Assembly (NCBI GenBank): GCA_013239625.1
Contig: MU053065.1
Location: forward strand, 62,001-126,000
Direction of reading: 5' to 3'
DNA length: 64,000 nt
DNA from: Lama guanicoe
Taxonomy: Eukaryota
The position numbers were made by a program, and so were the translations under genes. Below, piece by piece: positions 21,801 to 51,202 of the stretch (positions are counted from its first letter, which is position 1; each line of letters opens with the position of its first letter). The notes beneath the pieces are model-generated. The model was given only the letters and a program-made list of their open reading frames with translations. It had not been told where the DNA came from and searched no databases.

Positions 21801-24800
21801 GGGTAGGGTAGAAACTTGAAACTAGACTTTATTATTGCTTCTCAATTATCTTTGATTTTAACTATGCTATTTGGAACTAACTATGCTTAATGGAAAAACT
21901 CCAAATATTCTCAATTCCTCTCTAATTCAAACTATCTGTAAAAATTGAACTTTGCTTCTAGGACAACTGACATTTCACGTATCTCTTTTCACTTCCAATG
22001 CAGTGGACAGAATGCAGGAATCTACATTAAGGACTAAAAAAATCTTGGTTTACAAAATTTTAAATAAAAAATTCTTGGTTTCTTAAAAAAAATAAGAAGT
22101 CAAACTTAAATTCATCATTGAAAGTGACTTAAGCTTTTTTATAAAACAGAAAAACTAGATTTTTATCAAGTTTTAAAAGCATAGTGCTTATTTTTTAACA
22201 GAGATATGTACATATTTCCAACTTCCCAATTAAAAATGAAAAACACCAACCTGTCTACTTTGTGAACTTGCTTTTAATGACACTGGTACTGGGTCAGCAA
22301 CGAAGGATATACTTTTAGAGAAAAGACAGGTGTACAAGACTATTTTGTCTGTTCAGAGAGCCCTATTAAAATCAGGTGTTGGGTCGTGATGGCTAGACCC
22401 TACTTCTAACAGTCCCAAAGGTGACTGTGCAGGGCAGTTATCAATGCAGTGCCATCATAAACATCTTAATTACATCACTCGTCCAATCCTAAACGGTCTC
22501 AGTGACAGGAAAGAGGGTAAGCCCCACCCCTTACAACAAACTGAGTCACACACCCTGGCATCCCAATGAAAAAGTTAACTGCGACAGGAACCTAGCAGCT
22601 CCATTGGGCTACGTATCACTTTAAAACCCACTTTCCTGAAGTGAGAACCATCCCTAAAGGAGAATTATACCTTAACATAAAGCTCCAATTTTAACCAAAA
22701 TAAATCAATTTCAATGAAAACATCTGATAGTACTGCTATCTTGGAAAAACTATCCTTTCAATTAAAGGTGAAGCCGAGGCACTAAGTATTTTAACATTTC
22801 TAATTTTAAAGTTAAGATTACCATCTTAAAATTAAAATGTTAAAAAATTATAATGGTGCAACCACTGTGCCTCCATTTGCTTAAATTTTTGGCCATTTTT
22901 ACACCCCTAAGGGACTCATTTATTTCATATTTACAGCTGATAGTCTATTGATTTCCTGATTTGAAAATTACCTCTGTAAATCATTAAATCAAAGTCTTTA
23001 CTTTTAAATCAAAAACTGTTACTTTTTGATTTATCAAGTTACAATGCATTACAGTCAAGCCCTTTCATTTATTAAAACCTGGAGTTATTTCTCAATCCTA
23101 CTAAATCATGAAAAAACGATTAACTGTTCTAAAGTTGAGTAAAATTCATGTTGAGGGGCGGGGTGAGGGAATTTCTATTAAGTTGTTTCTTAAAAATTAA
23201 GAGGCATTCCTAATTAATTAGGGCATTGTGTTCAGCTTATAATGCTAAAATAAGTTAAATGAGAATATATTAGTGTTATTTTCCCAGTGTTTAGATTCAG
23301 CATTTCTGTCCTTTACCACAGAAACAAAATATGGTAACAATTATCAGGTAGTTCACATGACAATTCTGCAGATACATGTGATCATGAAACGCCTTCTTAA
23401 TAAGGTGAAGTCCTCAACTGTCCTATCCAAAACTGCCCCCTCCTTCACGAGCATCAGTTAGACTTCGTCTAAACCAGTCACTCAGTTCAGGTTCTAGGTC
23501 ACTCCTGAGCCTACCCAATGCGTCAATCAGAGGCATAACCTTTCGTCTTTCTAAGCAGTGTTATCACTGGCCAGCCAATTATCATCAAGTTTGTTTCCCT
23601 AAGGTTAACTCAGGATTCAATTTCCTCTACTTGTGCTCAGCACACATTTTCAACGTTAATGTGCTCCCTGCAGGACCGTGATCTGCACGGCCTCCCCCTC
23701 CCACCAGGATCAACCACAGGTGGGGGTGCTAACGTCCTTCTATTAAGTTCAGTACCCACCCCTGAGGTCCACGCTTCACTGGTCTTAGCTTTGGTTGGGT
23801 GTGAAGTGAAACAAACTCTAAACAAATGATGGGAAAACGTAGTCTGAAGGGGGAAAAAATGCCACAAATTAGGGACTCGACATGTTACAAACAAACGACA
23901 TCCACTGCACTATAAAACATCAAAATTATTTCAGGGAACAAAAATTATCTGCCAAATTTAATAGGCACTGATACTTGAGCTCAGCTCCGCTTTCCAAGGT
24001 GTCCACAGAAGCGAGACTTCAGAATTTCTAGTGCCGGTAGTGTGTCTGTTTTATCAAGGCTCCCCCCTTCCGTGGCTGCAAAACCAGAGCCACAAGTTAA
24101 TTTCCAGGGCAGTGTTAACATCAACACCCCAACTTTAAAGTATTATCGGTAAAACTTATAAGCAGAAACAAAAATAAAACCAAAAGACAAGATTCTGCAG
24201 TCACAAGTGCTTTAATTGTTAAAACAAATCACTTACTTGAAAATAAACAAGTGGCACCATTCTGCTCTAAAGCCGATACAGGTGAACGGAATCAGGAGGG
24301 TCGGTGTCACAGCGGGCACCAGGCCGCACACCCCCGGCCGCGCGCTGATCGCTGAGCTTACTATCTGCGAAGTCACAGTCAGGACACCACTCTCCGAAGT
24401 GACATCCATCTGTCACACTCTGACTTTAAAAGGTTAAACAGCCCGAACAGTTTAAAGAACTTTATTTTCAAAAATCAACATTACAGAGCATAATTACTAC
24501 ATTTAAATTTCTTAACAGTCCAAGTTTCCACAAAACCGTAGCCCAAATCCAGCGACTCCTCGACCTCCTCGAACTGTCATCACTGCGCCCTGTTTCAGGC
24601 CGCACCTGAAAACCAAGGTGCGCGGCTCACGAGAGTCGGGGGGCTCCGTCACCCGGCGTCCGACCCGACCTCCGCGTCAGGCGCGGCCACGGCGGCGGCG
24701 AAGCGCCGGCGCGCGGTCAACACTGAACCCCCCACAATTCAGTAAGGCGGTGAGACTTCTGCGGAGGCGGTCACTTCACCGAGCTCGGGGATGCAGGAGC

Positions 24801-25125
24801 GAGAGCCCTCCTTCTGAACGTACACCTGTAACATCTACTCAAACTGGGTCTCTCGTCCCCTAGGTTGAGAAACCAGCGATCAGGCCACACAGGTTTTACG
24901 GGGGGCGGGGGGGACTGCAATTAAGAAAGTTACAGGCTTCAGAAGAGCCACGTGCGCCCCCCAAACCTGCAGCGTCTCCTCAAGGACCAAAGAAACAGTC
25001 CGGACAGCGCGCTCCGCCGCCCTCCGCGTCCGCAGAGCCGGGGAAGGGACGCGCGAGCCCCGGGACCCGGCGGCGGGGCCAGCCTGCCGCGGGCGAGCAC
25101 GCGCCCCCCCGGCCCCCGCCCCCCG

Positions 25126-25262
25126 NNNNNNNNNNNNNNNNNNNNNNNNNNNNNNNNNNNNNNNNNNNNNNNNNNNNNNNNNNNNNNNNNNNNNNNNNNN
25201 NNNNNNNNNNNNNNNNNNNNNNNNNNNNNNNNNNNNNNNNNNNNNNNNNNNNNNNNNNNNNN
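25126..25262. other. Assembly gap (137 N) in the GC-rich island
   Basis: Run of N flanked by very GC-rich sequence. Confidence 0.99.
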
Positions 25263-25267
25263 ACGAC

Positions 25268-25301
25268 CACAAAATGGCTGCCGGCAGCCTCGTCACGTGA
25301 C
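25268..25301. promoter_or_regulatory. YY1 site plus palindromic E-box (USF/MiT-TFE CLEAR type)
   Basis: CACAAAATGGCTGCC at 25268-25282 and GTCACGTGAC at 25292-25301. Confidence 0.65.
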
Positions 25302-25464
25302 CCCTTTGTGCTTTTCGGGCGCCCGAACTCGGCGGGGCCCGGGTCCAAGTGGCCAGGGTCGGCGGGTGGCCCGAGAGGAGGCCCCGCCGGGCCGGGGCGG
25401 CCGGGGGCCGCGGCCGGGGCGGCGGGGGCAGGCCCGGCCGGCGCCGGGAGTCGGCGGCGGAGAG

Positions 25465-25481
25465 AAGATGGCGGCCATTTT
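25465..25481. promoter_or_regulatory. Overlapping double YY1 site
   Basis: AAGATGGCGGCCATTTT contains the YY1 consensus AANATGGC on both strands. Confidence 0.75.
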
Positions 25482-25558
25482 GTGAGGGTCTGTGCTCCGC
25501 CGCGGGCAGCGGAGGGAGCGGGCCTGGCGGCGGGTCGGACAGGGGAGTTAACACGTAC

Positions 25559-25711
25559 CGACTCCTCTTCCTTCTCCATTCCGGTGGGCATCTGCGGCAC
25601 GGCCCGGTTTATCGAGGCGTATTCGTGCAGGTCGGGCAGATCCTCACAGCGGAAAACCGGCAGCGGCTTCGAGGCGTCTAGCGCCCGCGCCCGAAACGAC
25701 AGTTTACTCAT
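25559..25711 (-). CDS. EPC1: EPC1 coding exon 1 (N-terminus of the EPcA domain), 153 nt, phase-0 donor
   Basis: Translates to MSKLSFRARALDASKPLPVFRCEDLPDLHEYASINRAVPQMPTGMEKEEES, the recognisable N-terminus of vertebrate EPC1. It is followed by the donor TCG|GTACGT (GT at 25558-25557) and lies in a CpG island. Confidence 0.97.
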
Positions 25712-25712
25712 C

Positions 25713-25769
25713 TCAGGCGCAGCAGATACCTCTCCGCTCTGGGGAAACGGCCCCGGCCAGCGGGATCAT
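25713..25769 (-). other. uORF MIPLAGAVSPERRGICCA* ending 1 nt before the EPC1 ATG
   Basis: ATG at 25769-25767 (weak context TCC-ATG-A), stop TGA at 25715-25713; the junction reads TGA-G-ATG. Confidence 0.6.
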
Positions 25770-25909
25770 GGAGAACCGGGGGTTCGGTCCCCACTCGCCC
25801 GCCGCTGCCGGGGACTGGAGGGGCGGAGCGCGGAGCCCGCCGTCCGGGCGCTCGGAGCAGCCGGGAGGTGGGAGGCCGCGCCGCTCCGCTCCTCGCTCGC
25901 TCGCTCTCC

Positions 25910-25939
25910 TCAATACGCCATGGCCAACATGGCGGACAT
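25910..25939 (-). other. uORF MSAMLAMAY* in the EPC1 5' leader (three in-frame AUGs)
   Basis: Minus strand reads ATG TCC GCC ATG TTG GCC ATG GCG TAT TGA, starting 228 nt upstream of the main ATG. Being transcribed depends on the TSS lying upstream of 25939. Confidence 0.7.
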
Positions 25940-28900
25940 TAAAACTCCACTGTGCGCTCTTCAGCCAACCCCAGCCATTCCCCACACTGCAACGCTGCTC
26001 GGGCTGAACTTTCCCGGCCATTACTTTCAGTCGAACTCCGGGCTGCGTCTGACGCGCTCCGCACCCACCAGGCTCAGTGTAAACCCGCGCATCCTCCGCG
26101 GCTCCAGAGGAGGCCTTGGCGTTTACCTACCCATACTCGCTCTTTCATTGTAATTGAAGCAAAGGGACTCATCGGACAGTGCAACCTTAAAGGAAAAAAA
26201 TTTAAAGCAAGACCTACTTCACAATGTTGCAGCCAGGTCTTTATATGTAGCTCATGGTTTTTCTGCACTGGAAGGAAATGCTACTTCAACGCAGCCAAGG
26301 GTTGACATTTATCATTTGTTCTATGGAAGACTATGAAACTGAATTTTATGAAGACCCATAGTGCTCCTGCCAAACCAAAAGAATTTTTTTAAAGCGAAAA
26401 TCTGTATCGTTAGAAGAGATGTTGATGGATGTGATTGTTGACATTTGGTTTATATTACACACAAAAATGAGTATCCAGAGAGCTCTTTCCAGTAAAATAT
26501 TTTAAAAATCAGACTTGTTGGGGTGGGTTTAACAGATTTGGCAGCAAAATTTCAAACATTCGCCAAGATACAAACGTTTTGTACGTCTGCTTTTCTCCGT
26601 GGGGAATACATAGTAAAAATAATCACTATTCTTAAATACTGGGTTGGACAGGAACTGTTATTAGCTGAAGGCATAGAGGCCAACTGCTATCTTTCAGGCT
26701 GGTTTGGCTACCACTCTACCGGGTGGAGAGGAGACAAGGAGAACACGGACTGCAGTTCTCCAGAACGATCCTGAAACTTCACAGTGACAACGCCCCTCTG
26801 TGGGGCAGATGGACTGTCATCTATGTCTCCCGTATCAGGGCGATGATGCATTTGTTCATTCAATGAGCAAACATTCATTGAGACCTCAGAGCCCTCTGAG
26901 AATGTTGTTAATTACTTAGCACCCAGGGGCACTCCTGGAGGAGCTGACACAGTGGGAGCAGGACCCGTGGGTGGTAACTGAGGGCTCAGGGCTATTTGGG
27001 ACCACGCAGGAGTGGCACCTGATCCGTGGGGAGTGGCTCTAATGAAAGCACTCAGGGAAGGCTTTTTGGAGGAGATGATATCGGAGTAAAAGCCACACAG
27101 GGTAAATACGGGTTAACCTTGCCAACGATAAAGGGAAGAAACGTATCTTGGGCCAGAGAAGCAGCGTGTGCAAAGGCTCAGACCCCTGACAGTGTCTCAT
27201 ATTCCGAGATCCTCAAGAATGACCACCACACTGTGGACCGTGACATCTGCTTAGCCAAGTGTAACAGTTCTGAAAATACGGGATGAACTTTAGTACAACA
27301 GTCCTCCCCAGCCTACTGCATTAGATTTCTGAAAATCCTAGTAGTAGAATTTGGTTGATTGAAGAGCCTACGAACTAAAATTCAGTCTTAGGTCATGAGG
27401 GAACCACCAAGAAAATGAATATATATATATATATTTTCTTAAGCCTTCATTAAAATAACAGCCTACAGATAATGTTTTCCATATCCCATACTAGTAAGAA
27501 TGGGCACTATACAACCAGGTTCCTTGTTTTCCAGAAATTCTAGACTCACCCTCCATGGCGGGTTCAGAGAGATGCTTACACATTAAGCTTGCCTTTTGCA
27601 GGTGAGGTACCTGCCAGGAGATACTTCCTTTCTGCACTGGTTCCCCATCCATCTCAGTGCCCTGGATTTCTGACCTGCAGGTCCTATTTGCTTCCCAAAG
27701 ATGCGAAGGCTGGAGTCCCAAGCCTCTTACATTCAGTTCATGTCCCTCCCTCCTGTGGGGCAGAAGTGTAGCAATGAAGGCTCCAGTTGAGCTTCCCTCA
27801 GGCCCCTTGCAAAAATGGTTAATCCTGCACCGTCTTTCACCTTTTCTTTTCCCAACTTAAAGTTCCCTCTTTTTCCTAAGTATCCCCAACCAGGGTGACG
27901 TGAAATTCTCAGTGTGTAAAGCTGCACACCTTTCCTCAAAGGGAAACTTTTGGTTGGGATGGGACCAGCAGTATTTCAAATAGTTTTGATTCATGTCACA
28001 GTTACTGAATAACTAGGCAACACGCAGGAGCATCATTGTAGGGGATACAAATAAAATACCGATAAAGGAATCCCCAGTTAATAAAGTGACCAGGACAAGG
28101 CAGGATGGTGACATGCCTGCTCGGAGTTGAGAAAGAAAGCAGTCAGCTCCAGGTGGGTGGATCAGACTTGATGGGGAGACGGCATGTGATATGGCTCTGA
28201 GGATGACTGATGTTCCAACTGGTAACGGGGATGAGATGGTAGAAGAATTGGGTCTTCATGGGAGAGGGCAACCTGAGGGACATAAAATGGGGAAGAGTCA
28301 CCTGCTATGTGTCTGAAGATGAGGTTTACTTGTCCAGAGTTCAGTAGGAGAGGACAACAATCGAGGTATGACAAAACTGAGAAGAACTTGGGTGGAGGGA
28401 GTCAGACTAGAAAGCACAGAGACGTAAGTTTTAATGGTAATAATAATCACTTACAATATCACTATCCTGAAATGTGATGCATTGGTTTCAAATACAGAAC
28501 GTCCGCTTAAACAACAACAAAGAATGCGCCAAATGCACTGGTTCTGACAGTGCAGTCTCCTGTGCGTAATGTACCTGAAATACAGCTCCGCGTGCCCAGT
28601 ATGAGCCCAAGTCCTATTGTTACTTTGCAGTTGTTTCTAGGATTTGCCTCCTAATTTCCATCCTCCCTGTCTCAACCATCGTCCCAGCTCTCGTCACTTC
28701 CCACATAGAAACACCCGCTAGCCCAGGTCGTCCTCGGTTCACTCGTCCCCTCAACAAGCCTTTAGGAAGCTCCCACTTCACAGGACACTGTGCTGGGTCT
28801 TCCCCGATAGTGGCTGGTGGGAGCCAGCAGTGGCTGGTCAGGGATGTGGGTCCCGGGGGTGTCAGGGCTTCCCCAGGTCAATGTGCCTGAACCCCACTTT

Positions 28901-50500: not shown

Positions 50501-51202
50501 AGAAAAAAAAAATTAGAAAAATGCCAAAAATTACAAAATGTCTCCCCAATGTACCTCCGAGAAAAACAAGATAGCTCTGCAAAGACTATCCGATGAGGAG
50601 CTTGAGGGAATTACTACCATGGAACACAAGTTTAGATCTGATCAGCAAATAAAAGACCCACTATTTAGTAACAGCCATAACTTAATATAAACCCGGTTAT
50701 GTCAATCTCCGCCTTCATTATACCAAGGGCAGCTTTTCTGTAGTTTGTATCCAAGTAATCCATCAGGAAAACCACAATAGGACTATTTAAAACCAAACCA
50801 AACCAAACTACATCCATAGTTTGCCAGCTGATCATTTAATCCTGGACATATTAGGTAATACACAATTTTTATAAAGAAGATATGCACATATTTGGCATTA
50901 CCAACATTGCTGGCACAAAACAAGTCCATCTTGAAATAGCTGAGTTCCTCTTAGTTCACAGTAATCAAAGTATAATTTATATTATAAATACTTAGCTTTG
51001 ATCCTGGAGGCGGGGGGAACCTAATTTTTTTTCTTTTGGTAAAAATTAACCAGACAAGATTAGGTGGAAATGTGCAGAGATCAAAGCTAAGGAAAAAAAT
51101 ACAAAGATTGGTTTTCCGAGAAGAAACACAATGCAAATCCTTTTTAGCCGGGAGCTCGTTCAAAGATTTTAGGGCATAAAATGTTTAAAATGACAAACTT
51201 AC

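What the first reader, a model, noticed from the sequence alone, without database searches (positions are those of the whole stretch)
25910..25939. Triple-AUG uORF with graded Kozak contexts, folded into a hairpin, in the EPC1 leader
Seen: the minus strand reads TTTA-ATG-TCC-GCC-ATG-TTG-GCC-ATG-GCG-TAT-TGA. Three in-frame AUGs are spaced exactly 9 nt apart and their contexts rise from weak (TTA-ATG-T) to medium (GCC-ATG-T) to optimal (GCC-ATG-G). AUG2 and AUG3 lie in a perfect 7-bp stem (CGCCAUG-uuggc-CAUGGCG, 25916-25934), extendable by AAUG/UAUU, so all three AUGs can be sequestered. Known: short uORFs allow reinitiation (ATF4/GCN4 type) and context-dependent uAUGs sense eIF1/eIF5 start-codon stringency. 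Inference: this element would capture almost all scanning ribosomes and make synthesis of the NuA4/TIP60 scaffold depend on reinitiation, with uORF length (9, 6 or 3 codons) set by stringency. Alternatively it is a palindromic YY1-type DNA site (CGCCATGTT), or both.
Basis: partly seen in the sequence, partly recalled or inferred. Interest (0 to 1): 0.8.

Follow-up and report, generated by a model that had tools for sequence, protein, structure and literature searches.

The report
YY1-type promoter site doubling as uORF
The three-AUG mini reading frame at the start of the EPC1 gene is real and strongly conserved, but its core is an ancient YY1-type DNA binding motif found at the same spot in the gene's relatives in many animals, so it is best read as a promoter element that also supplies an upstream start codon.

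Summary
The minus strand at 25939-25910 reads ATG-N6-ATG-N6-ATG...TGA (MSAMLAMAY), with a 7-bp stem at 25934-25916, 228 nt upstream of the EPC1 start codon (25711). The pattern and the hairpin alone are close to chance. The conservation is not. A vertebrate-like EPC1 contig (L001) has 26 of 153 exon-1 bases changed, all synonymous, and an otherwise unalignable leader. It shares an exact 32-nt block, 25941-25910. That argues for constraint on the nucleotides, not the peptide.

In 79 invertebrate E(Pc) loci, the first half of the element recurs as GTCCGCCAT(G)(A/T)TGG, about 200-290 nt (mostly 200-225) before the start codon. It sits at the extreme 5' end of spliced transcript contigs. The same motif recurs in intron 1 in 22 of 29 lineages. 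It fits the YY1/Pho consensus.

In the leader copy the variable base is G in 17 of 22 sequences, which gives a sense-strand AUG and a short uORF with a non-conserved peptide. In the intron copy it is G in 2 of 20.

Best reading: a YY1-type promoter-proximal site pair that also encodes a conserved cap-proximal uAUG. The graded-Kozak stringency sensor is not supported. TSS position, YY1 occupancy and uORF translation remain untested.

The parts
25910..25941 (-). 32-nt block identical between the window and the vertebrate-like EPC1 contig L001 (TA + the whole uORF including its stop)
   Evidence: the only long shared word in otherwise unalignable leaders; exon 1 differs at 26 of 153 nt, all synonymous
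25910..25939 (-). uORF1, 9 codons (MSAMLAMAY). In-frame AUGs at 25939, 25930 and 25921; stop 25912-25910. In frame with EPC1 (228 nt upstream) but closed by the stop
25924..25937 (-). YY1/Pho-type site 1, GTCCGCCATGTTGG on the gene's sense strand (antisense AACATGGCGGAC fits AANATGGN(C/G)); it contains AUG2
   Evidence: motif definition from PMC3491394; homologous motif in invertebrate leaders
25916..25924 (+). Inverted partial YY1-type half-site (CGCCATGGC on the + strand; ATGGCG on the sense strand). It contains AUG3 and forms the 3' arm of the palindrome/stem
   Evidence: keeps the CGCCAT core and lacks the AA/TT flank; conserved in L001; a similar inverted pair occurs in the L032 leader
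25916..25934 (-). 7-bp inverted repeat, readable as an RNA hairpin or a DNA palindrome
   Evidence: the stem is kept in the MFE and centroid folds of both leaders; no covariation is available
25953..25953 (-). Candidate initiator A (CGCACA). This is inferred, not mapped. It would place AUG1/2/3 at about +15/+24/+33 and the GCCAT core at about +21..+25
   Evidence: sequence; the Inr consensus is recalled; spliced invertebrate transcript contigs start 0-33 nt upstream of the homologous motif
25972..25980 (-). GAATGGCTG, the second longest word shared with L001 upstream of the element; possibly part of an upstream promoter motif
   Evidence: related YGGGW/TGCAYTnYGGGW words lie 20-37 nt upstream of the motif in 13 of 22 lineages
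25713..25769 (-). uORF2, 18 codons (MIPLAGAVSPERRGICCA), weak context TCC-ATG-A, stop 1 nt before the EPC1 AUG
   Evidence: L001 has the same TCCATGA start and a stop 2 nt before its AUG. This architecture is not enriched over shuffles across 16 leaders
25559..25711 (-). EPC1 coding part of exon 1 (start codon 25711-25709; GT donor at 25558)
25465..25473 (-). Second CGCCATNTT match, in intron 1. It is the only other match in the 64-kb window, on the same strand
   Evidence: the homologous intron-1 motif is present in 22 of 29 lineages

Best explanation
The element is first of all a DNA element. It is a consensus YY1/Pho-type recognition site (GTCCGCCATGTTGG, gene-sense strand) joined tail-to-tail to a weaker inverted CGCCAT half-site. 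It sits at or just downstream of the EPC1 transcription start, at the upstream edge of the CpG island. It is the vertebrate form of a very old motif that marks the 5' end of E(Pc)/EPC genes in many animals. A twin motif lies in intron 1, so exon 1 is bracketed by two such sites. Two of the three ATGs are the CCATG cores of the two half-sites, so the palindrome (the 'hairpin') and the 9-nt spacing follow from the paired sites. Because the site is transcribed into the first few tens of nucleotides of the mRNA, it also opens a short uORF. The leader copy of the motif keeps a sense-strand ATG far more often than the intron copy does. I therefore think the uAUG is itself under selection and damps or buffers EPC1 translation, which then proceeds by leaky scanning or by reinitiation over the remaining ~200 nt. 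Shown: sequence, conservation, motif match, position in invertebrate transcript contigs. Inferred: YY1 as the binding factor, TSS position in this species, translation of the uORF.
For: (1) The window and L001 share a 32-nt exact block, 25941-25910, in leaders that otherwise do not align. Their exon 1 differs at 24 of 51 codons, all synonymously. P(no change in 9 codons at that rate) = 0.003, so the constraint is on nucleotides. (2) The antisense strand of site 1 reads AACATGGCGGAC, a full match to the YY1 motif AANATGGN(C/G) quoted in PMC3491394. (3) CGCCATNTT occurs only twice in 64 kb. Both copies are on the gene's sense strand and they flank exon 1. (4) In 22 leader sequences from 14 of 24 peptide clusters, a CCGCCAT-type motif lies 200-288 nt before the start codon (17 of 22 at -200..-225). 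Flanks are conserved: C at -2 in 21/22, C at -1 in 19/22, T at +7 in 20/22, G at +8 in 19/22. (5) The same extended motif (GTCCGCCATnTTGGAT) lies at +160..+260 in intron 1 in 22 of 29 lineages. The background is 11 hits in 42,372 nt. (6) Spliced transcript contigs start 0-33 nt upstream of the motif (L021, L047, L048, L049). This fits the published preference of YY1 motifs for positions just downstream of the TSS (PMC10979970; PMC2518114). (7) The variable base is G (sense ATG) in 17 of 22 leader copies and in 2 of 20 intron copies. A hand tally by cluster gives 10 vs 4 against 2 vs 9, Fisher p = 0.015. The uORFs opened there run 4-39 codons, have unrelated peptides, and stop at least 89 nt before the main AUG. 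(8) PMC2518114 shows that a YY1-site/ATG element can act in both transcription and translation. It also reports that 36% of genes carrying it start translation further downstream (median 5'UTR 192 nt).
Against: No TSS, YY1 occupancy or ribosome data could be obtained for this locus, because read laying was not available. The main site is in the opposite orientation to the strictly oriented TISU/YY1 downstream elements described in PMC2518114. Vertebrate conservation covers 32 nt. That is more than one 12-bp site plus a half-site needs, and the exactly shared block begins 2 nt before AUG1, with looser similarity further 5', and ends exactly at the uORF stop. This fits a translated uORF or an RNA structure as well as it fits a DNA element. 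Only two vertebrate sequences were available and no EPC2. The lineage clusters are not phylogenetically independent, and their taxa are unknown to me. The invertebrate variant GCCATGATGGAT also contains TGATGGAT, which resembles a PBX/Exd-Hox site (recalled), so a DNA-level reason for the conserved G-A is possible. 5 of the 22 leader copies (3 whole peptide clusters plus L044) have the motif without an ATG. 6 of 20 clusters with enough upstream sequence show no sense-oriented motif. uATG numbers in 18 transcript leaders are near expectation.
Confidence: 0.6

Rival explanations
1. The element is primarily a translational device: a triple-AUG uORF with graded contexts, folded into a hairpin. It captures scanning ribosomes, makes EPC1 synthesis depend on reinitiation, and reads out eIF1/eIF5 stringency through the choice of AUG.
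For: All three AUGs, the frame and the stop are identical in L001. The exactly shared 32-nt block starts 2 nt before AUG1, with looser similarity further 5', and ends at the last base of the stop codon. A sense AUG is preferentially kept in leader copies of the motif across animals. The stem is predicted in both leaders. The stop lies about 200 nt before the main AUG, which leaves room for reinitiation.
Against: There are no synonymous changes, where about 4 would be expected, so the peptide or the ORF alone does not explain the constraint. The AUG1 context differs between the two vertebrates. Invertebrates have AUGAUG or no AUG, never the 9-nt triple. The same extended motif recurs in intron 1, where it cannot be a uORF. 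The AUGs probably lie within about 15-35 nt of the cap, where ordinary scanning recognises AUGs poorly (established knowledge, recalled). No covariation supports the stem.
Confidence: 0.12
2. A purely DNA-level element. It is a YY1-type (or other factor) palindromic promoter site, and the AUGs have no translational role, either because most transcripts start downstream of them or because cap-proximal AUGs are skipped.
For: The motif is conserved in intron 1 as well as in the leader. 5 of the 22 leader copies (3 whole peptide clusters plus L044) keep the motif without an ATG. Constraint is at nucleotide level. uATG counts in transcript leaders are at expectation.
Against: The leader copy has G at the variable base in 17 of 22 sequences, against 2 of 20 for the intron copy. 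G is not the base I recall as preferred by YY1 on that strand. Spliced transcript contigs of three peptide groups include, or start at, the motif.
Confidence: 0.22
3. A conserved RNA hairpin at the 5' end of the mRNA is the functional unit. It would act as a protein-binding or cap-proximal structural element, with the AUGs and the YY1 likeness incidental.
For: The stem is the predicted fold alone and within both full leaders. The block is symmetric around the loop.
Against: There are no compensatory changes to test. The energy is modest (z -2.37). The lower stem is not kept in L001. Most invertebrate homologues have only the 5' arm motif, with no inverted partner.
Confidence: 0.05
4. A chance arrangement of ATGs in a GC-rich leader.
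For: The pattern itself occurs about as often as expected (2 vs 0.67 per window). A chance copy exists at 50907.
Against: A 32-nt exact match to a distant vertebrate, and a homologous motif in many animal lineages.
Confidence: 0.01

Closest known systems
Promoter-proximal YY1 sites just downstream of the TSS (Xi et al. 2007, known to me only as cited in PMC3491394; PMC10979970)
   Same: Motif AANATGGN(C/G). CpG-island, TATA-less promoter. Position apparently within the first tens of nucleotides of the transcript. Strong conservation.
   Different: The main site is on the opposite strand to the usual downstream orientation. It is paired with an inverted half-site. It has a conserved twin in intron 1. 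Binding was not tested.
[quoted passage not shown]
   Same: A YY1 site containing an ATG within about 30 nt of the TSS, acting in both transcription and translation. 36% of TISU genes start translation further downstream.
   Different: Here the ATGs open a 3-9 codon uORF, not the main ORF. AUG3 matches only 8 of 12 positions of the TISU consensus as I recall it. AUG2 lies in the reverse-oriented site.
Reinitiation-type uORF control (ATF4/GCN4; recalled)
   Same: A short uORF far enough upstream (about 200 nt) to allow reinitiation, and a second uORF close to the main AUG.
   Different: uORF2 ends before the main ORF and does not overlap it. There is no evidence of eIF2-alpha dependence. Start-proximal uORFs are not enriched in the family.
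Start-context autoregulation of eIF1 and eIF5 uAUGs (recalled; PMC5570006 seen in a search listing only)
   Same: uAUGs in different Kozak contexts could respond to initiation stringency.
   Different: The graded contexts are not conserved (AUG1: TTA vs GTA). No data.
Clustered YY1 sites in the first intron of YY1 itself (Kim et al. 2009, recalled, not retrieved)
   Same: Conserved YY1 motifs in intron 1 of a chromatin-regulator gene, often as multiple or palindromic copies.
   Different: A different gene. Here one site is in the leader and one in intron 1, and conservation extends to invertebrates.

Membership tests
YY1/Pho-type binding site | Sequence match to AANATGGN(C/G) / GCCATnTT | tested here: met
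   Site 1 reads AACATGGCGGAC on the antisense strand and is a full match (motif from PMC3491394). Site 2 keeps ATGGCG but lacks the AA flank.
YY1/Pho-type binding site | Occupancy by YY1 in cells or in vitro | not testable with these tools
   No ChIP or EMSA data were reachable. Searches found no paper on YY1 at EPC1.
YY1/Pho-type binding site | Position at or just downstream of the TSS | tested here: inconclusive
   The TSS of this locus is not mapped (one search gave no data). Spliced invertebrate transcript contigs start 0-33 nt upstream of the homologous motif.
YY1/Pho-type binding site | Evolutionary conservation of the site | tested here: met
   The 32-nt block is identical in L001. The motif is present in 14 of 20 peptide clusters with at least 230 nt upstream.
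TISU element | Sense-strand consensus around the ATG (12 nt, recalled) | tested here: not met
   AUG3 region GGCCATGGCGTA matches 8 of 12 positions. AUG2 is in the reverse-oriented site.
TISU element | [quoted passage not shown] | tested here: not met
   A stop follows after 3-9 codons. EPC1 starts 198 nt after that stop.
Regulatory uORF | uAUG lies in the mature 5' leader | tested here: inconclusive
Regulatory uORF | Conservation of the uAUG beyond neutral expectation | tested here: met
   Identical in L001. Sense ATG in 17 of 22 leader motif copies against 2 of 20 intron copies. A DNA-level cause is not excluded.
Regulatory uORF | Ribosome initiation at the uAUG and an effect on the main ORF | not testable with these tools
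   No EPC1 row was found in the readable uORF catalogue supplements. Other supplements were unreadable.
Conserved-peptide uORF | Peptide conserved while synonymous sites vary | tested here: not met
   The vertebrate copies are identical at every base. Invertebrate uORF peptides share only MM(D) and differ in length, 4-39 codons.
Start-stringency sensor (graded uAUG contexts) | Conserved weak/medium/strong contexts | tested here: not met
   AUG1 has T at -3 in the window and G in L001. There is no triple AUG in invertebrates.
Structured RNA element | Base pairs supported by covariation | tested here: inconclusive
   Only two sequences carry the full palindrome and they are identical across it, so nothing can covary.

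The most novel reading that the evidence does not exclude
The 5' end of E(Pc)/EPC1 carries a pan-animal, dual-coded element. A YY1/Pho site sits in the first nucleotides of the transcript and has been kept for hundreds of millions of years with a sense-strand AUG. One sequence would therefore set both transcription (through the Polycomb recruiter YY1/Pho, together with a twin site in intron 1 at a near-constant ~410-490 bp distance) and translation (through a cap-proximal uORF) of the NuA4/TIP60 scaffold. That would hard-wire a feedback between the Pho/YY1 system and Enhancer of Polycomb. In vertebrates the site was doubled into a palindrome that adds two more AUGs and an RNA hairpin.
Probability: 0.22. 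Interest if true: 0.7.

Novelty: new member of a known kind. Interest (0 to 1): 0.5.

Why it matters
EPC1 is the scaffold of the NuA4/TIP60 acetyltransferase, and its dosage matters in development and leukaemia. I found no paper on how its expression is set. The searches were made, covering EPC1 or 'enhancer of polycomb' combined with uORF, YY1, YY1 binding sites, first intron, and upstream open reading.

The comparative data here point to a deeply conserved YY1/Pho-type motif pair bracketing exon 1 of E(Pc)/EPC genes, and to a conserved upstream AUG embedded in the leader copy. This gives a concrete, testable link between the Polycomb recruiter YY1/Pho and Enhancer of Polycomb.

It is also a clean natural case for separating the DNA role from the RNA role of a YY1/ATG element. 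The variable base of site 1 can be changed to remove the AUG while keeping the YY1 consensus.

More generally it is a caution: conserved 'uORFs' at the very 5' end of CpG-island genes may be transcription-factor sites first.

Tried and rejected
The shares therefore cannot be turned into a 5' end. My rough extrapolation, that contigs end near the element, is not evidence.

2. No whole genome is held for this window, so EPC2 and other paralogues could not be examined.

3. Scans of genome contigs (4 loci at 40-52% identity in bacterial records) and viral contigs (1 short match; 0 exact matches of the 32-nt block) gave no further animal orthologues. Only one vertebrate-like orthologue (L001) was found. 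111 relatives were found in metagenome contigs and only the best 80 were kept.

4. uORF catalogues. There were no EPC1 rows in the held supplements of PMC4739776, PMC4890304, PMC6283423 and PMC4940163. Some of these hold little text or may list transcript ids, so this is not evidence of absence. The supplements of PMC7530721, PMC3483550 and PMC5570006 were unreadable. Four papers were not held, including Xi et al. 2007.

5. The literature hits for EPC1 + uORF were listed by title and abstract start only; the one I opened (PMC8638676) matched only the name of a patch-clamp amplifier (EPC10), and the other two titles do not concern EPC1 translation.

6. Earlier findings of this scan: nothing on this genome or sequence.

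7. I tested whether a uORF ending next to the main AUG (uORF2 type) is a family feature. It is present in 9 of 16 leaders against 7.7 expected from shuffles, p = 0.34. Rejected as a general feature.

8. General uATG enrichment in 18 transcript leaders: counts are near expectation.

9. The long ORFs across the region (102 aa minus; 79 and 77 aa plus) have no Pfam family. I treat them as non-coding.

10. The strict GCCATNTT motif finds the leader site in only 7 of 37 lineages. The relaxed core search was needed to find the rest. The 22 anchor sites were picked by eye from that list.

Full report
**What is there.** On the minus strand the window reads TTTTA-ATG-TCC-GCC-ATG-TTG-GCC-ATG-GCG-TAT-TGA. 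The ATGs are at 25939, 25930 and 25921 and the stop is at 25912-25910. CGCCAUG (25934-25928) pairs with CAUGGCG (25922-25916). With the AAUG/UAUU extension, this is the minimum-energy fold of the 41-nt stretch (-13.1 kcal/mol, z -2.37, 2 of 200 shuffles as good). The ORF starting at 25711 is EPC1: its 51 exon-1 residues are identical to residues 1-51 of Enhancer of polycomb homolog 1 in PDB 8qr1_C and 8xvg_M. Exon 1 ends at 25559 with a GT donor. The element lies at the upstream edge of a CpG island that spans about 24250-26150. It is 228 nt upstream of the start codon and in frame with it, but closed by its own stop. It has 18 codons, a weak context, and a stop 1 nt before the EPC1 AUG.

**Is it more than chance?** Not by pattern. 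Exact ATG-N6-ATG-N6-ATG occurs twice in the window on both strands, against 0.67 +/- 0.74 in shuffles. The second copy (50907) sits in AT-rich non-promoter DNA. The hairpin is only mildly better than shuffles.

**Vertebrate conservation.** I searched metagenome contigs with the exon-1 peptide. This gave 570 pattern matches and 111 relatives, of which the best 80 were kept as L001-L080. L001 encodes the identical 51 residues but differs at 26 of 153 exon-1 bases (22 at third positions). So it is a distant vertebrate-like EPC1. Its leader does not align with the window's except for one block. That block is an exact 32-nt match, TAATGTCCGCCATGTTGGCCATGGCGTATTGA, which is window 25941-25910. The next longest shared word in the 320 nt compared upstream of each start codon is 9 nt. 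The exactly shared block begins 2 nt before AUG1, with looser similarity further 5', and ends at the last base of the stop. At the synonymous rate of exon 1 (24 of 51 codons changed), nine unchanged codons have probability 0.003. The constraint is therefore on the nucleotides themselves and not merely on a peptide or an open frame. The base at -3 of AUG1 differs (T in the window, G in L001), so the 'graded contexts' are not fully conserved.

**Invertebrate homologues.** The other 79 loci are invertebrate E(Pc) homologues. One of them, L021, hits Pfam EPL1 at E 1.3e-15. Some are genomic, with an intron after ...EKEEE. Eighteen are spliced transcript contigs. They fall into 42 distinct exon-1 peptides and 24 clusters. 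I have no taxon labels for them, so 'many animal lineages' rests on peptide divergence (67-84% identity) only.

**Pattern 1: the intron-1 motif.** The YY1/Pho-type word GCCATNTT lies at +160..+260 from the start codon, that is 10-110 nt into intron 1, in 22 of 29 deduplicated lineages that have intron sequence. The background is 11 hits in 42,372 nt. The extended consensus is GTCCGCCATnTTGGAT, and it is often a palindromic double site. The window has its only other CGCCATNTT match in intron 1, at 25465-25473 on the same strand. L001 has one at +247.

**Pattern 2: the leader motif.** A motif of the same family lies in the leader 200-288 nt before the start codon, and in 17 of the 22 picked sequences at -200..-225. 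It is mostly GTCCGCCATGATGGAT, and sometimes CCGCCAT(T/A/C)TTGG. A sense-oriented [CG]GCCAT core in that interval is present in 14 of the 20 clusters that have at least 230 nt of upstream sequence. The vertebrate GTCCGCCATGTTGGCC is plainly the same site. Its antisense strand, AACATGGCGGAC, is a full match to the YY1 motif AANATGGN(C/G) quoted in PMC3491394 (passages). Spliced transcript contigs of three peptide groups begin 0-33 nt upstream of the motif (L021, L047, L049, L048). The genomic L010 and the transcript L021 have the motif at the same distance, so the leader has no intron there. The motif therefore sits at the extreme 5' end of the mRNA. This fits what is published for YY1 motifs. 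Most lie just downstream of the TSS (PMC10979970, passages). The YY1-site/ATG element TISU lies within +30 (PMC2518114: abstract start in the listing, passages). By analogy, and from an initiator-like CGCACA at 25956-25951 (Inr consensus recalled), I infer a TSS near 25953. That would put the three AUGs at about +15, +24 and +33. This is inference and was not mapped.

**DNA site, uORF, or both?**

*For a DNA site:*
- The same extended motif recurs in an intron.
- Constraint is at nucleotide level.
- 5 of the 22 leader copies (3 whole peptide clusters plus L044) carry the motif without an ATG (L044, L048, L055, L064, L071).
- The palindrome, and hence the 'hairpin' and two of the three ATGs, follows simply from two inverted CGCCAT cores. 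Inverted pairs also occur in the L032 leader and in several intron-1 copies.

*For a selected uAUG as well:*
- The variable base N is G (sense ATG) in 17 of 22 leader copies, but only in 2 of 20 intron copies, where C, A and T dominate.
- A hand tally by cluster gives 10 vs 4 against 2 vs 9, Fisher p = 0.015. The clusters are not independent, so this is indicative only.
- The uORFs opened there start MM(D/K/S), run 4-39 codons with unrelated peptides, and stop at least 89 nt before the main AUG. That is the pattern of a uORF whose translation matters more than its product.
- Redundant in-frame AUGs are a shared theme: AUGAUG in invertebrates and three spaced AUGs in vertebrates.

*Caveats:*
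- GCCATGATGGAT also contains TGATGGAT, which resembles a PBX/Exd-Hox site (recalled), so a DNA-level cause is possible.
- uATG counts in the leaders are otherwise at expectation.
- uORF2-like start-proximal uORFs are not enriched: 9 of 16 leaders against 7.7 expected, p = 0.34. The window and L001 do share the TCCATGA start and a stop 1-2 nt before the AUG.

**The hairpin.** The 7-bp stem is kept in the MFE and centroid folds of both full leaders. The lower stem is not kept in L001. Both whole leaders fold no better than shuffles (z -1.51 and +0.40). With two identical sequences there is no covariation, so RNA structure and DNA palindrome cannot be separated.

**Conclusion.** The element is an ancient YY1/Pho-type promoter-proximal site, doubled into an inverted pair in vertebrates. 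It is transcribed into the first nucleotides of the EPC1 mRNA and there provides conserved upstream AUGs. My estimates are about 0.8 that the DNA-site reading is right, about 0.45 that the uORF has a selected translational role, and about 0.1 for the graded-stringency sensor. The closest described system is the dual-role YY1/TISU element. PMC2518114 notes that 36% of genes carrying that element start translation downstream of it, with a median 5'UTR of 192 nt. EPC1 resembles those genes, but here the main site is reversed and the ATGs are closed by a stop.

**Prior work.** I found no paper describing YY1 sites or uORFs at EPC1 or E(Pc). Supplementary uORF tables that I could not read, or that may list transcript ids, could still contain the uORFs.

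**Left open.** The TSS in this species, YY1 occupancy, ribosome initiation, EPC2, and a taxon-aware test of the AUG preference remain open.

Noticed in passing
window 25465-25473 (-); L001-L080 at +160..+260 from the start codon: A YY1/Pho-type motif (consensus GTCCGCCATnTTGGAT, often a palindromic double site) lies just inside intron 1 of E(Pc)/EPC genes in 22 of 29 deduplicated lineages. The window carries its only other CGCCATNTT match there. I found no paper on this.
   Followed up: partly
window 25713-25769 (-); L001 827-898: A second uORF of 18 codons ends 1 nt before the EPC1 AUG. L001 shares the TCCATGA start and a stop 2 nt before its AUG, with an unrelated peptide. Across 16 leaders such start-proximal uORFs are not enriched (9 vs 7.7 expected).
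   Followed up: yes
leaders of WIN, L001 and 20 invertebrate loci: The distance from the leader motif to the start codon is nearly constant (17 of 22 at -200..-225), although the intervening sequence does not align between the two vertebrates. Together with the intron-1 site, this brackets exon 1 at about 410-490 bp. Unexplained.
   Followed up: no
window 25972-25990 (-); 20-37 nt upstream of the motif in 13 of 22 lineages: YGGGW words lie upstream of the leader motif, several as TGCAYTnYGGGW (L032, L010, L050, L058, L056). They look like a reversed ZNF143/Staf site (consensus recalled, not tested). The window and L001 share GAATGGCTG there.
   Followed up: partly
window 50881-50907 (-): The only other exact ATG-N6-ATG-N6-ATG in the window lies in AT-rich DNA. 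It is a chance example of the pattern.
   Followed up: yes
window 25920-26153 (+): A 77-codon ORF (MANMAD...) starts on the opposite strand at the antisense AACATGGCGGAC, which has the TISU-like orientation. It has no Pfam family, and its similarity to L001 is limited to the conserved DNA words. Probably not coding.
   Followed up: partly
L008 about -283..-268; L032 about -222..-205: Additional palindromic CGCCAT...ATGGCG pairs occur in invertebrate E(Pc) leaders. They resemble the vertebrate inverted pair.
   Followed up: no
window 25126-25262: A run of 137 N lies in intron 1.
   Followed up: no
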